A program made the position numbers. This document shows positions 45,001 to 51,000 of a DNA stretch of 64,000 bases, one piece after another (positions within the stretch are counted from its first letter, which is position 1; the number at the start of each line of letters is the position of its first letter). The stretch spans positions 811,660-875,659 of the forward strand of contig CM000429.1 in the NCBI GenBank assembly GCA_000165345.1. Reading direction: 5' to 3'.

Positions 45001-48000
45001 TCACCTCTTCTGAGGTTTCACCATTATCTGAAGCTTCAGATTCATTATCCACCGAAGTCAAGATACAGTCTTTCACTGAGACTGGACAGACTTCTACCTC
45101 TCCAGTTTTAGAATCATGGTTTGAAACCATTAAGCAATCAATCAAGAAAGGTACAAAGGACATTGATAGAGAGTTCGATGATGCCCTTAATAAAGCAATT
45201 GCGCGTTTCGATCCCTCTTCAGTGTATTTCTCATGTGTCTCTGAATTGAAGAGATTCAGTTTGGGTTCTCATAGAAGAATAACTGAAGCATGCCGCAAGA
45301 TTGATCCATTCTCCCACGTTAAGTGTCAGAAGCTTAACCATTTTGAACTTATGGCCATGATCAAACTGAGAGAGGAACTCGAGAAGCATGGAAGAGATAT
45401 TGTTGTCGATCTCAGGGACTTGTGCACTGTTGCTTCCAAGATGTCTATGGAATCTTTCCTTAGAACAAGAGATGAGGAGCTTTCTAGCATGTGCATTAGA
45501 ACACTTAAAAAGAGTAGCTTCAAGAGTAAGTATCCCATTTCTGAAAGAGGAATTAAGAAGGCATGTATCAAGTTTGATTACTTCAGAACCTCTTCTTGTG
45601 GTAATTTAGTGTCTAACTACCCAGAAAAAGTCAACTTCGTCTTATCTCTTGCAAGTAACATGTTTGACAAGAGAACTGACAAGGAGCGTCTCCAGATTAT
45701 TAGAGAATCTGAATTCAGCACTCCTTCTTATGCTGATATTTGTAATTCAGTTGAAAGAGTTCCAGTTGAAACTGTTGAAGAGTGCATATTCGAACTCAGA
45801 GACTCACTATCTAAGTTCAAATCCATTGCATCTTTACTCAACATTGAGGGTGCATGCATTGCTTCATTAGAGGAAACTCCATTCGGTCGTTACCCACATT
45901 ACCCACATTACCCACCTTACCCGGATACTCAGTTTGACCGCTATCCACAATCAATTTACCCAGGTCACTTACACCGCCCTGTGATCCCAAAGAAGTCTGT
46001 TAGAAGATTCTATAAGGATATCGAGTTCCAACCACAATTTCCCTCTCAACATTGGCTCAGAACAGAGCTCCCAGACATTTTGGAACAACGTGCACCTTTC
46101 TTAGAACAGGAATATTCTGAATCCAGAAAGGGTTACTACAAGGATCAAGAAGGCAGGCCTGTATATCATGATGGTTACAGATACAGACTTAATGGCAATT
46201 GGTACGTCAAGCTTGGCGAAATGTGGTATATCGACAATTCCTCCTCTTTGGATTTTATCAAAATTTCACCAGGCGACCCAAGACACAGTAATTACCCGCT
46301 TTCTTTCTATGAGAAATCTCCATCTGATCCTAAGGGCCCATTAAGGAGAAAATCTTTTGCAACATACCTTTCTCCACAATCATCTTATTACTATCCTGGA
46401 AGTAGCAATTATCTTTATACACTCTATGGTAAGCGTCCAGGTCAAGGATATTATCCTACAGGTGCTCACCATCCATTCTACAGTAAATGTGAAAAGTGTC
46501 ACAATTGGATCCCATATGGACACGCACATGAACATGATGCAGTACAAATGAAAAAGTCTCTTTCTCGCTTCGAAGAGAAGCTCCCATCAACGAAAGATGA
46601 ATCTGCGATTGGAGGCGGCTACGTTACAGTTACTAATGAATATGATGGAGATGGGAAACTTATTGTTAAGACAGTGGAGAAAACTGCGTTACCTGAAGCA
46701 AATCCACCCCAAGGCAAGCGCGAGGTTGGCGTTCAAGTTGGATAAATTACTAACGAATTGCTGCTTCGTCAGAAACTAGAGTATCCTATAACTATTGTTT
46801 GGCACTCGGCAGTTCGAATAGCCGAATTATTATTTTACCTACTTTAAGATCGATTTTAACTTTAGATTGACCTTCTAAGAACAGAGCTAGTTGGCACTAC
46901 CAAGATGCCGATAATTAGCGGCTTAAATGTATTTAAGTTTCTGACATTGATTTAATTCATATCGTTTGAGTTTCTATTAATTTATTTCAAATTCTGTTTA
47001 TGTTGGACCCTGCTCACCCATACTAAATAATATTGCTACACTTAATGTTTCTTTTCAAAATTTAGATCATTGTGAACGTCTGGTCGGTGGACTGGCCAAT
47101 TGATCTGTTTTAAAGGCTGAAGTTCTTAAATGTACATTTAGAGAAAGAATACGTGTAAGTGGACCAACCGCGCGACACGATAATCAGGCGCCTATTTGGC
47201 AATAATATAATTATCGTCCCTGCGACGATGGCATAATAAATTAATCTATTCTAACACAATAATTGTCAAAAACTACCCACATAGTTTGCCGGGCATTTGA
47301 GCCCACGGATTTTTTTTTTTAGCAATTTTTTATTTGAAATTTACATCATAATTAAATCACTCGAGTTTCGGGTTTGTGTGATTGATTGTGAGGGCAAGTG
47401 GATTGAGAGACAATTATTAGGAGTGTAATGCAGAGGAGAAGGGACGATGGAAACAAAAATGAACAACTTAGAAATAGAAAATTGTAAATCAAATGAAAGC
47501 AAAAGTTTAGAATGTGAAACGAGTAAAGGCAATCCGCCAGCTCCGACGAAAATTGTAATCCCAAAGTCTATGATCATTTTTGTTTCAGCAGCAACAGCAA
47601 TTTCCATGTTTGTATTAGCATTTCATGTAATTCCAACTTTAGTTGTGAACAAATACTTACTTTTTGAACAAAAAGGGCTTCCACTAAGGACTGATCATAG
47701 AATTTTTTCATTCATGAAGCAATCTATAAATACTAAGCCAAATAACTTTCGAGGAAATAATGGCTCACCTTCAAATGCATTAGAATTAGAATTTCTAAAA
47801 TATGGAAGCTCAGAAAGCATTCAATCGTTCAGTAAGAATAGAAAATTATCGGAGGCGATTCTAAACAATACAAACTCTAGTTTATATACTCATGAAAATA
47901 ATACTACATATATTTCAGGTAGCCCTACCCTAAATTTTAATTCTGATATTAATTCTGTGCCTAATTTAGGATCAACAGAAACAAACTCTAAATTTAATTC

Positions 48001-51000
48001 AAATTATGTGTGCCATAAATTCGTTTCTATCAGTAAAAGTGACTCTACTACTATTGAAAATGAATTTACTCATAACACTAAATGCAAAATTCACTACATT
48101 CTAGCAAGGCCTCTTCCAAAGGAATTGAATAAATTAGATTTGGCAACTATAAATGCTTTTAACCATTTAAGTGAGGCATCTCAGTCGGTTAAAATGATCA
48201 CTGAAATCCTTGAAAATAAAAAAAAAGATGAGGGACTATTGATCTTAATGGCATCAAGAATGAATTACGAACCAGATTGGAAATCATCTTTGGAACGTAT
48301 TCATACAAATTGGGAATTTAATACAAATGTTTCACAAATTATTCTGACTTCCTGGACGATCTCTAAGTCATTTTTCCCTGGACGTCATTATACTCCTGCA
48401 TTGGATTTTGGTTTCATGATTTTAAATATTCCACAAGAAAGTGACGATGAATTAACTTCTATGAAGATAAGAGCTTCACTTGATGTTGTAAAGTCGTTTA
48501 TTTCTAATTTAAATCTTATAATTGATGGAACTCTATCAAAGTTATTTTCAGGCCCAAACTATAGTATTTTAACAGAGAATAGTTTGACTCAGGATTTATT
48601 TACAAATTGGACCTATTTCGATAATTCATTTAGTTTCTTAAGTAACTATTTTAATAAAAATCAGTCAATGTTACTAGAGGATTATCTGACATCAGCAGCA
48701 TTAGATGTTTCTAGGTTAATTGAACAATTACCATTGACAATTGTAGACTCGGTCATTTTAGCAAAGGATAACTTGGATAATTTATATAAGGGAAACCCAA
48801 CAGAGCTACGCTATACTAATCCGAATGAGACTCAAGTTGTAATTATACCACCAGTAGAACGAAAGAAAATCGCAAAATATAATTATGAAGAAAAGTTTAG
48901 AAGAATATGCATCTATCAGGCACATACTGAACAGAGGTCTATTCTTAGATCGACACCATCCAGAGCTTCAATGGCTGAGTATGCAAGATATCATGGGTAT
49001 TCTTACTTCTTATTTGATGGATCATTTTATGATTCTATCCCAAAACCAGTGATTACAGATTGGTCTAAACAAGGTTTTTATATGAAAATATTTTCAGGTC
49101 TTAAGTTACTCTTTTGGAATTTAGATAAAATTGGGGATATTTTTGGAAAAATTATAAATGATCCAGAAACTAATCTCATGTCAGAAAAGTTCTATTCCGA
49201 GTTCTTGGAAAGTGTAATGCCTGACTATTTAAATGTTGATTGGGATGCACGCCATAATGCAAGGATTGGAAGTACTGGTAAGATTGACTCAAAAGGTTCA
49301 TCTGGGAAGGAGGGAATTCAAATAACTCCTTCAAATATTAAGGCTAATGTATGTGACTATATTGTTTGGTTTGATTTAGATATCGTAATTACAAATAAGT
49401 TCTTTTCTATTGAAAGAATATTAGATTCAAATACTCCAGAATACAATAACAAACCACCTGAAATATTTAGAAATATATACAAGGATGCAGGAGAAGTCGT
49501 TTTCTTGGCTGCAAGAGATTCTGAATGGAGAAATAGAAATTCTTTTGTCAACAGTGGCTTCTTCATTTTGTCTAGGTCAAGAGCTTCTTTACAAACTTTA
49601 TTCCATACGCTTGCATTGGACCCTGTTAAGTCTCAAGAAGTCGTGCTAAATGGACGATTTTGGCCTGAACAATCCACTATGGCTCATGCAACGCTTAGTA
49701 TATTCAACCATTCATTCTCATCTCCAAATCAGACTTACCCCTTCCTAGACACTAAAATTGACACAGTTAATGATATTAAGAAAAAATTGGTTGGCTCCAC
49801 CCCCATTATGCTTACTGCCTACTTAGAAGAGATAGATAGATATACACATTCTGTATTAGCAAGCCAAAGGTTTGCTAATGGTTTTATTCATATCTCCCCA
49901 GATGCTTATGGAGATGGTCCATGGCATCCTGGTGACTTATTCGTTCATGCTGCCGGACAGTATAGTCCATTCAGAGACAATGTATTATCTGGACTGCTTT
50001 ACTCTATCAACACTGTTGGTTTTACTTATGATGAAATTAACTACTTTAAAAACTACTGCTATAACTCTTTAGACTTTGTTTACAGAGGTTTGGATAGACT
50101 TATTGAAGGGCTGACTCATGAATTTATTGAGTTTGAGAAAGCAAGGCTAAATGATCCAACTCAACAATTAGAAAACATTAACAATGTTGATTTGACTTTT
50201 CACTTTGTGAAAAAACTTATGGCTGTAAAAACTAGGCCTAGTTCGAAAGATGTTCTCACTCACCCAAACCAAACGAGCTATGAGAAAATTCACTTTTTAA
50301 GATGTAACTATTCATTATCTATGGCTACTAAATGGTCTATTGCTGAAGCATTTGTGTTGGGTGGTATTTCTGTATTTGGTGTTGCTATTATTGCTTTTAT
50401 TTTTAAATTTGCAAGGTTTTATTCTATTAAGTGAATCATTTTACGATGAAATATTTGTATTTAGAATTAGAAAATAGCATTGCCAAATTTTATCGCATAA
50501 AGCCATCAATGGCTAATTAATTAGATTATGTACTATCAATTTTTATATTTTTGATTTTTTTTTTTAATTTCAAATTTTCTATTAGAAATAATAAAAAGTA
50601 TATATTTTTAACAAAACTAACATTTGTTTTATTCCAACTTTGAAGCTTAATTTTCTTTATTTAAATTTTAGATTTAAACTTAAAATGAATTTGTATTCGC
50701 ACAATTTATTCGAGCAATAGAAAAATTCTATTACTAAAAGAGAAAATTTTATTTCTTGTAGTTTTTAATAGATTTTTTTTTTAAATATGAAAGTTTTTTA
50801 TTTAACTAAAATTTTATTTTTGATTCTTATACTAGGCGTATTTGTAAAGTCTGAAAACTTTAGATCGGCACAAGAACTAGAGGAAAACACTTCTAATTCT
50901 GAAGAAGAAAATCAAAATTCTCCAAAAAACTTCGTTTCAAATACTATAAGCGAATATTATAATCACGTTTCAAGTGCAGCTACAAATAAATTCAACGAGG

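What the first reader, a model, noticed from the sequence alone, without database searches (positions are those of the whole stretch)
47447..50434. GT34-like glycosyltransferase with both N- and C-terminal membrane anchors
Four blocks align with the Mnn10/gma12/XXT (GT34) catalytic signature: WFDLDIV...NK (DxD), NSGFFILSRS, EQSTMAHA and GDLFVHAAGQ. GT34 enzymes add alpha-linked galactose, mannose or xylose to glycans. The protein is about three times longer than yeast or plant GT34 enzymes, has a 400-aa N-terminal stem and an unexpected extra C-terminal TM helix. It is adjacent to a Tyr-rich secreted protein and could glycosylate neighbouring secreted products.
Basis: partly seen in the sequence, partly recalled or inferred. 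Interest (0 to 1): 0.5.

Follow-up and report, generated by a model that had tools for sequence, protein, structure and literature searches.

The report
Divergent GT34-like glycosyltransferase, doubly membrane-anchored
This Cryptosporidium parvum gene (most likely cgd1_3820) encodes a 995-residue membrane protein whose C-terminal half looks like a very divergent sugar-transferring enzyme closest to the yeast/plant GT34 family, but it is too diverged for standard family models to detect, it occurs only in Cryptosporidium, and its sugar product is unknown.

Summary
The ORF (47447-50434, +, 995 aa) is real. It is identical to C. parvum Iowa II XP_628193.1. The four motif blocks and both hydrophobic anchors are present and conserved in all 14 orthologues and paralogues examined.

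The GT34 reading is only partly supported.
- Pfam PF05637 finds nothing in the native proteins at E<=10, although real GT34 enzymes score 229-310 bits. An exhaustive HMM search of 1.84 billion proteins finds only Cryptosporidium relatives.
- Profile-profile comparison with a fungal plus plant GT34 alignment gives three collinear local hits (P about 0.002, 0.002, 0.1).
- After a lineage-specific 73-aa insertion is removed, it gives one alignment with probability 80-85% and P 6e-6 to 1.4e-5. Reversed controls give P>=0.017, and 0 of 150 shuffles reach the score.
- On insertion-excised cores, PF05637 is the only glycosyltransferase family that appears among 24,736 Pfam models. It stays sub-threshold at 10-14 bits.

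The "stem" is really about 120 variable residues plus a conserved domain of about 270 aa of unknown fold. The C-terminal helix is a true transmembrane segment, not a GPI signal.

Verdict: a genus-restricted, GT34-like GT-A enzyme with unusual architecture, and not a demonstrable GT34 member. Moderate interest.

The parts
47447..50434 (+). Whole ORF, 995 aa plus stop; C. parvum Iowa II XP_628193.1 (cpbgf_1003820, most likely cgd1_3820)
47447..47566 (+). N-terminal hydrophilic tail (aa 1-40), inferred to be cytosolic
   Evidence: Poorly conserved. It precedes the first hydrophobic segment. The topology is inferred.
47567..47644 (+). TM1 / signal anchor (aa 41-66)
   Evidence: Kyte-Doolittle peak of 2.2-3.1 in every homologue.
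47645..48001 (+). Variable, S/N-rich stem (aa 67-185)
   Evidence: Lowest conservation of the lumenal part: 12-50% identity beyond the closest species.
48002..48811 (+). Conserved N-terminal lumenal domain of unknown fold (aa 186-455)
   Evidence: Many invariant residues among orthologues, including C189 and C213. No Pfam or PDB hit. Not a duplicate of the C-terminal domain.
48884..50026 (+). GT-A-like catalytic core (aa 480-860)
48977..49000 (+). EYARYHGY block (aa 511-518), aligned to GT34 'EYAERHGY'
   Evidence: E511, Y512, A513, R514, G517 and Y518 are invariant.
49118..49336 (+). Lineage-specific insertion (aa 558-630) between the W-x-K helix and the DxD strand
   Evidence: It splits the HHalign match. 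Excising it raises the probability from about 13% to 80-85%. It is moderately conserved and modelled as helical.
49373..49381 (+). DxD motif D643-L-D645 (inferred Mn2+/diphosphate binding)
   Evidence: Invariant in 14 sequences. Aligned to the Gma12/Mnn10 DxD.
49550..49561 (+). NSGF (aa 702-705), aligned to GT34 'N(A/L/T)GS(F/L)'
49661..49678 (+). WPEQST (aa 739-744), aligned to the GT34 'EQ' block
   Evidence: W739, P740, E741, Q742 and T744 are invariant. Alignment.
49931..49960 (+). GDLFVHAAGQ (aa 829-838), with H834 as the inferred third metal ligand (the H of the DxD/H motif)
   Evidence: G829, F832, H834 and A835 are invariant. Aligned to GDLCIHFAGC of Gma12. The DxD/H site is described for GT34 in PMC12892413.
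50027..50332 (+). Conserved C-terminal lumenal region, helical in part in the model (aa 861-962), with invariant C871 and C953
50333..50404 (+). TM2 (aa 963-986)
   Evidence: Hydrophobic peak present in all homologues.
50405..50431 (+). Basic C-terminal tail KFARFYSIK (aa 987-995), inferred to be cytosolic
   Evidence: Hydrophilic or basic tails of about 8-32 aa follow TM2 in the homologues.

Best explanation
The gene encodes a Cryptosporidium-restricted glycosyltransferase of the secretory pathway.

**Catalytic domain.** The C-terminal lumenal domain (about aa 480-860) is a very divergent GT-A fold. Its nearest detectable relatives are the GT34 enzymes, closer to fungal Gma12/Mnn10 than to plant XXT.

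**Inferred mechanism.**
- D643 and D645 (the DxD) together with H834 hold a divalent metal that binds the diphosphate of a nucleotide sugar.
- The NSGF and E741-Q742 blocks line the sugar-donor pocket.
- By analogy with GT34, the sugar is transferred with retention of configuration, giving an alpha linkage, to an acceptor in the ER or Golgi lumen.

**Topology.** The polypeptide is held in the membrane at both ends: an N-terminal signal anchor (aa 41-66) and a C-terminal TM (aa 963-986) with a short basic tail. It therefore forms a hairpin with both termini in the cytosol. The stem, a conserved accessory domain of about 270 aa and the catalytic domain lie in the lumen.

**Shown here:** the ORF, the motif conservation, both hydrophobic segments, the remote profile similarity to GT34 and the GT-A-type fold hits.

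**Inferred:** enzymatic activity, metal dependence, retaining chemistry, topology and localisation.

**Unknown:** donor sugar and acceptor.
For: - Three collinear HHalign hits to a 140-sequence GT34 alignment (P 0.002, 0.002, 0.1). Reversed and N-domain controls give P>=0.27.
- With the 73-aa insertion excised there is a single alignment with probability 80-85% and P 6e-6 to 1.4e-5. Reversed controls give P 0.017-0.04. None of 150 column or block shuffles reaches the score: 47.7 against a maximum of 29.9.
- The alignment pairs EYARYHGY, W-x-K, DxD, NSGF, EQ and GD..H.AG with their GT34 counterparts.
- PF05637 is the only GT family, and the top hit, in 3 of 6 and 3 of 10 insertion-excised sequences scanned against all of Pfam (E 0.05-0.6).
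- All putative catalytic residues are invariant across orthologues and the gastric-species paralogue. The GT core blocks are the most conserved regions, at 40-45% identity in the paralogues against 12-25% in most other regions.
- Both TMs are present in every homologue. Four cysteines are invariant and 10-21 N-x-S/T sequons occur per homologue across the whole protein (15 in the window protein), which fits a lumenal body.
- UniRef labels the C. hominis copy 'Nucleotide-diphospho-sugar transferase domain-containing protein'.
Against: - No Pfam GT family hits the native sequences at E<=10 in any member.
- After excision PF05637 reaches only 10-14 bits, against a gathering threshold of 23.
- The plant-only XXT profile gives nothing (P about 0.1).
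- HMM searches of PDB sequences find no glycosyltransferase.
- The best HHalign probabilities depend on a post hoc excision and never exceed 85%.
- I could not build rival profiles for GT8, GT77 or GT32 to run the same HHalign test.
- Mass spectrometry of C. parvum oocyst lysates reports N-glycans not modified by Golgi glycosyltransferases and O-GalNAc not extended (PMC5549699), so no product is known.
- Charge counts around TM1 and TM2 in C. parvum, by my own reading of the sequence, do not decide the topology.
Confidence: 0.6

Rival explanations
1. It is a GT-A glycosyltransferase, but from a different or entirely separate family such as a GT8-, GT77- or GT32-like lineage. On this view the GT34-like motifs reflect features shared by all retaining GT-A enzymes rather than specific kinship.
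For: - The plant GT34 profile alone gives no signal.
- UniRef uses the generic name 'Nucleotide-diphospho-sugar transferase domain-containing protein'.
- Even a genuine XXT weakly hits PF03407 (E 0.004), which shows cross-talk between these families.
Against: - In an equal-opportunity scan of all Pfam models, only PF05637 appears on the excised cores. PF03407, PF01501 and PF04488 never do.
- The HHalign match covers six GT34-specific blocks in order, including EYA(R/E)RHGY and GD..H.AG(C/Q), which to my knowledge are not general GT-A features.
Confidence: 0.2
2. It is a catalytically inactive glycosyltransferase-like protein that acts as a scaffold, chaperone or sugar-binding membrane protein of the secretory pathway.
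For: - No glycan product is known. N- and O-glycans are reported as unextended (PMC5549699).
- Divergence is extreme, and there is a large insertion next to the DxD strand.
- GT34 includes members with degenerate metal motifs, for example DxT in Gmh5 (PMC12892413).
Against: - DxD, H834, E741-Q742 and NSGF are invariant in all 14 sequences, including paralogues at 26-34% overall identity.
- The motif-bearing blocks are the most constrained parts of the protein.
Confidence: 0.1
3. It is a GPI-anchored surface protein, as one C. hominis assembly annotates it. On this view the C-terminal hydrophobic stretch is a cleaved GPI-attachment signal and the GT-like motifs are irrelevant.
For: The NCBI name 'putative GPI anchor-containing protein' in C. 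hominis and C. canis records, and the C-terminal hydrophobic segment.
Against: - The first hydrophobic segment begins only at about aa 41, after a hydrophilic N-terminus. That is a signal anchor rather than a cleavable signal peptide.
- The C-terminal hydrophobic segment is followed by hydrophilic, basic tails of about 8-32 residues in the homologues. By general knowledge this is atypical of GPI signals.
Confidence: 0.03
4. The motif resemblance is due to chance and the region is not a glycosyltransferase fold at all.
For: - No standard HMM hit.
- Low-confidence structure models.
- Foldseek finds nothing.
Against: - Shuffle null: 0 of 150 reach the observed HHalign score.
- Reversed controls give P>=0.017, against 6e-6 for the real alignment.
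Confidence: 0.05

Closest known systems
Fungal GT34 enzymes: S. pombe Gma12 (alpha-1,2-galactosyltransferase) and S. cerevisiae Mnn10 (alpha-1,6-mannosyltransferase); Pfam PF05637
   Same: The conserved blocks occur in the same order: EYA-x-(R/Y)HGY, W-x-K, hydrophobic strand plus DxD, N-x-G-(S/F), EQ, and GD-x-x-x-H-x-AG. There is an N-terminal membrane anchor with a lumenal catalytic domain. The DxD/H metal site is described for the family (PMC12892413).
   Different: - About 22% identity over 178 aligned columns, and only after a 73-aa insertion is removed.
- Fails the PF05637 threshold.
- 2.5 times longer, with an extra conserved domain of about 270 aa.
- Has a second, C-terminal TM, whereas GT34 enzymes are single-pass type II proteins (PMC12892413, PMC13376630).
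- Restricted to one genus.
Arabidopsis xyloglucan xylosyltransferases XXT1/2/5 (GT34; PDB 6bsu, 9p3j)
   Different: No significant profile similarity to a plant-only XXT alignment (P about 0.1). XXTs use a disordered stem, not a folded accessory domain, and have no C-terminal TM (PMC13376630).
PBCV-1 A64R (A064R) glycosyltransferase domain (PDB 2p6w)
   Different: It is a soluble viral protein without TM segments and has only 211 residues. It was not detected by any sequence method here.

Membership tests
CAZy GT34 / Pfam PF05637 Glyco_transf_34 | Whole-protein score at or above the PF05637 gathering threshold (23 bits) | tested here: not met
   No hit at E<=10 in any native family member. After artificial excision of insertions the score is 10-14 bits. 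Positive controls Mnn10, Gma12 and XXT score 229-310 bits.
CAZy GT34 / Pfam PF05637 Glyco_transf_34 | Profile-profile homology to an alignment of bona fide GT34 proteins | tested here: inconclusive
   Native: three collinear hits with P 0.002, 0.002 and 0.1 and probability <=14%. Insertion excised: probability 80-85%, P 6e-6 to 1.4e-5. 0 of 150 shuffles reach the score. Plant-only profile: negative.
CAZy GT34 / Pfam PF05637 Glyco_transf_34 | GT-A (Rossmann-like nucleotide-diphospho-sugar transferase) fold | tested here: met
CAZy GT34 / Pfam PF05637 Glyco_transf_34 | DxD plus distal His metal-binding site (DxD/H), conserved | tested here: met
   D643, D645 and H834 are invariant in 14 sequences and are aligned to the GT34 DxD and the His of GD..H.AGC. 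The motif definition is from PMC12892413. Spatial clustering was not testable.
CAZy GT34 / Pfam PF05637 Glyco_transf_34 | Type II architecture: short cytosolic N-terminus, a single TM, a stem and a C-terminal lumenal catalytic domain | tested here: not met
   The N-terminal anchor and stem are present, but there is also a conserved domain of about 270 aa and a second TM at aa 963-986 with a hydrophilic or basic tail, in all homologues.
CAZy GT34 / Pfam PF05637 Glyco_transf_34 | Retaining alpha-transfer of Gal, Man or Xyl from a nucleotide sugar | not testable with these tools
   This requires an enzyme assay. No candidate product is known in C. parvum (PMC5549699).
Pfam PF03407 Nucleotid_trans (GT77), suggested by the UniRef name | Match to the family HMM | tested here: not met
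   No hit at E<=10 in native or excised sequences, including the C. hominis protein that carries the name.
GPI-anchored proteins (NCBI name in C. hominis and C. canis) | Cleavable N-terminal signal peptide, plus a C-terminal hydrophobic signal at the very C-terminus | tested here: not met
   The first hydrophobic segment starts at about aa 41. The C-terminal hydrophobic segment is followed by hydrophilic or basic tails of about 8-32 aa. No dedicated GPI predictor was available.

The most novel reading that the evidence does not exclude
The protein founds a Cryptosporidium-specific glycosyltransferase family that descends from, but can no longer be classified in, GT34. It would be held in the membrane as a hairpin by two TM helices and equipped with its own lumenal accessory domain. 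It would make an alpha-linked glycan, on a glycolipid, an oocyst-wall component or a secreted interface protein, that current glycomics has missed in a parasite thought to have essentially no Golgi glycan extension.
Probability: 0.25. Interest if true: 0.6.

Novelty: new variant of a known kind. Interest (0 to 1): 0.4.

Why it matters
Cryptosporidium is a leading cause of childhood diarrhoea, and its glycans are vaccine and diagnostic targets. Its known glycosylation is strikingly simple: N-glycans are unprocessed and O-GalNAc is unextended (PMC5549699).

A conserved, apparently catalytically intact, genus-restricted GT-A enzyme with no known product would point to an undiscovered glycan or glycoconjugate. 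It has no detectable relative outside Cryptosporidium, and therefore none in the host, in an exhaustive search. That would make it a parasite-specific target.

The double-anchored architecture with an accessory domain is also unusual for a Golgi-type glycosyltransferase. On the annotation side, the 'GPI anchor-containing protein' label looks wrong, and 'hypothetical protein' can be upgraded to 'putative GT-A (GT34-like) glycosyltransferase'.

Tried and rejected
1. Direct Pfam scans of the window protein, of all 14 homologues, and of the C. hominis copy that carries the UniRef transferase name. No GT family appeared.
2. phmmer and hmmsearch of the protein and of three different family profiles against PDB sequences. 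Only noise was returned.
3. An exhaustive profile search of 1.84 billion representatives, hoping for intermediates to bridge to GT34. Only four Cryptosporidium clusters were found.
4. HHalign against a plant-only XXT alignment (120 sequences, Neff 2.2). Not significant. One search was also run by mistake in global mode and should be ignored.
5. AlphaFold on 10 orthologues failed, with pLDDT 31. Adding the C. muris orthologue and three paralogues raised it only to pLDDT 44 and pTM 0.48. Foldseek against the PDB on that model gave nothing. The afdb50 library was unavailable.
6. A test for an internal duplication (N-domain against C-domain) was negative.
7. I considered adding GT34 sequences to the AlphaFold alignment and rejected it, because it would be circular for fold assignment.
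8. Literature and supplement searches for the inferred locus tag cgd1_3820 (expression, localisation) found nothing. The hyperLOPIT paper is not held.
9. The GPI-anchor reading and the 'glycosylates its neighbour' idea are rejected as unsupported (PMC5549699).
10. Both non-self homologous-protein searches returned narrow sets (plant XXT at >=84% identity; mostly Saccharomycotina Mnn10). The GT34 profile is therefore less diverse than the Pfam seed, and I had no searches left for rival-family profiles.

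
Full report
**What is there.** The window is AT-rich (GC about 0.18-0.41) and carries long uninterrupted ORFs. The ORF at 47447-50434 (+) encodes 995 aa and is an exact match to Cryptosporidium parvum Iowa II XP_628193.1/EAK88278.1. Another assembly names it cpbgf_1003820, so it is most likely cgd1_3820.

Sources name its neighbours an 'insulinase-like peptidase, telomeric gene' (51628-54723) and an 'SKSR family paralog, telomeric gene' (57160-59934). This places the locus in a subtelomere of chromosome 1.

**Observation check.** Hydrophobic segments lie at aa 41-66 and 963-986.

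Orthologues at 43-97% identity exist in at least ten other Cryptosporidium species or genotypes. An exhaustive HMM search of 1.84 billion cluster representatives found only four clusters, all Cryptosporidium:
- two intestinal-species orthologue groups;
- the C. muris orthologue CMU_019770;
- a paralogue found only in C. muris, C. andersoni and C. serpentis.

Across the 14 aligned sequences, D643, D645, N702-S-G-F705, W739-P-E-Q742, T744, G829, F832, H834 and four cysteines are invariant. The motif-bearing core blocks are the most conserved parts, at 40-45% identity even in the paralogues, against 12-25% in most other regions.

**Is it GT34?** By the standard test, no. Pfam hmmscan finds no glycosyltransferase family at E<=10 in the window protein, in any of the 14 aligned homologues, or in the C. 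hominis copy that UniRef calls 'Nucleotide-diphospho-sugar transferase domain-containing protein'. In the same library, Mnn10, Gma12 and an XXT score 229-310 bits on PF05637, so the negative result is real. Sequence and profile searches of the PDB, which holds XXT1, XXT2 and XXT5, find nothing.

**Remote homology.** I used recalled XXT2, Mnn10 and Gma12 sequences only as bait. With them I retrieved 240 database proteins, all annotated PF05637, and built GT34 alignments.

HHalign of the Cryptosporidium C-terminal domain (aa 455-960, 14 sequences) gave these results:
- Against 120 fungal plus 20 plant GT34 sequences, there were three collinear local matches. The first was EYARYHGY...W-x-K (P 0.002). 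The second ran from the DxD through NSGF (P 0.002). The third was GDLFVHAAG (P 0.1).
- Reversed-sequence and N-domain controls gave P>=0.27.

The matches are split by a block of about 95 residues that GT34 lacks. Removing 73 of these residues (aa 558-630) merges them into one alignment, with probability 80% and P 1.4e-5. Trimming to the core gives probability 85% and P 5.9e-6. Reversed controls treated the same way give P 0.017-0.04. None of 150 column- or block-shuffled versions approaches the score: 47.7 against a mean of 16-18 and a maximum of 29.9.

The alignment pairs six blocks with their Gma12/Mnn10 counterparts, at 22% identity over 178 columns. A plant-only XXT profile gives no signal, so the affinity is to the fungal-type consensus.

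Scanning insertion-excised sequences against all 24,736 Pfam models serves as an equal-opportunity test across families. It brings up PF05637 as the top hit, and the only glycosyltransferase family, in 3 of 6 and 3 of 10 sequences (E 0.05-0.6, 10-14 bits). That is still below the 23-bit threshold.

**Structure.** AlphaFold2 with 10 orthologues failed (pLDDT 31). With 14 sequences, including the C. muris orthologue and the paralogues, it reached pLDDT 44 and pTM 0.48. The alternating strand and helix pattern fits a Rossmann-like core.

Foldseek on the same model found nothing, as expected for poor local geometry. The AFDB library was unavailable. I take this as independent but weak support for the GT-A fold, with little power to separate families.

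**Architecture.** Aa 67-185 is a poorly conserved S/N-rich stretch. Aa 186-455 is a conserved domain with invariant residues and cysteines among orthologues. That domain has no Pfam or PDB match and is not a duplicate of the catalytic domain.

The C-terminal hydrophobic segment is conserved in every homologue. By the alignment, it is followed by a hydrophilic, mostly basic tail of about 8-32 residues. The first hydrophobic segment starts only at about residue 41. This argues against the 'putative GPI anchor-containing protein' label in some NCBI records and for a hairpin with both termini cytosolic. The lumenal location of the body is inferred from the GT homology, the conserved cysteines and the 15 N-x-S/T sequons in the whole protein. 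It is not shown.

**Mechanism (inferred).** By analogy with GT34, the DxD plus His bind Mn2+ and the nucleotide-sugar diphosphate (the DxD/H site, PMC12892413; DxD mutants of XXT2 and XXT5 were used as inactive controls in PMC13376630). The sugar would be transferred with retention of configuration.

Donor and acceptor cannot be predicted, because GT34 members use UDP-Gal, GDP-Man or UDP-Xyl. Mass spectrometry of C. parvum oocyst lysates found N-glycans not modified by Golgi glycosyltransferases and O-GalNAc not extended (PMC5549699). The usual GT34 acceptors therefore seem unused, and the product is an open question.

**Neighbour claim.** ORF 44007-46745 (Q5CS75) has a signal peptide and a Tyr/Pro-rich C-terminal third. 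By gene order it is most likely cgd1_3810. [quoted passage not shown] Adjacency in a eukaryotic subtelomere is not evidence of a functional link, and nothing here supports one.

**Verdict.** Membership of GT34 as defined by its HMM and type II architecture is not met.

It is a new variant of a known kind: a genus-restricted, strongly diverged lineage with an inserted subdomain, an accessory lumenal domain and a second membrane anchor. Interest is moderate (0.4). It would rise if activity and a novel glycan were demonstrated.

Noticed in passing
window 44007-46745 (+): The upstream neighbour is a 912-aa secreted protein (Q5CS75) with a signal peptide and a Tyr/Pro/His-rich C-terminal third containing YPHYPHYPPYP repeats. 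By gene order it is most likely cgd1_3810. [quoted passage not shown]
   Followed up: partly
window 51628-54723 (+) and 57160-59934 (+): Sources name these an insulinase-like (M16) peptidase 'telomeric gene' and an SKSR-family secreted protein paralogue 'telomeric gene'. The window is therefore a subtelomeric end of chromosome 1. The M16 protein scores only a weak Pfam Peptidase_M16_C hit (E 0.0097, below threshold).
   Followed up: partly
window 50787-51098 (+): A 103-aa ORF with an N-terminal signal-peptide-like segment and an acidic, low-complexity body. This exact sequence is not in the 15-billion-protein collection, so it may be unannotated or annotated with other boundaries. It has only faint Pfam hits, for example ETRAMP at E 0.25.
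   Followed up: partly
P0013/P0014/P0015 (C. muris CMU_006470, C. andersoni cand_005030, C. serpentis): These species carry a second, paralogous copy of this protein (26-27% identity over the full length). It has the same two TM helices and all catalytic-type residues. No intestinal-species counterpart turned up in the exhaustive search.
   Followed up: partly
window 62132-62737 (-): A 201-aa ORF whose first 69 residues match the C-terminal half of the dUTPase domain (PF00692 positions 63-129, E 4.7e-5, 23.6 bits). This may be one exon of a spliced gene or an ORF with a wrongly extended start.
   Followed up: no
window 60001-62000 and 54001-58000: Very AT-rich stretches (GC 0.18 and 0.22-0.25) between the subtelomeric genes, well below the window average of about 0.31.
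   Followed up: no
database records for the window protein: Public names conflict: 'hypothetical protein' (C. parvum), 'putative GPI anchor-containing protein' (C. hominis, C. canis) and 'Nucleotide-diphospho-sugar transferase domain-containing protein' (UniRef, C. hominis). No Pfam model available here reproduces the last of these.
   Followed up: yes
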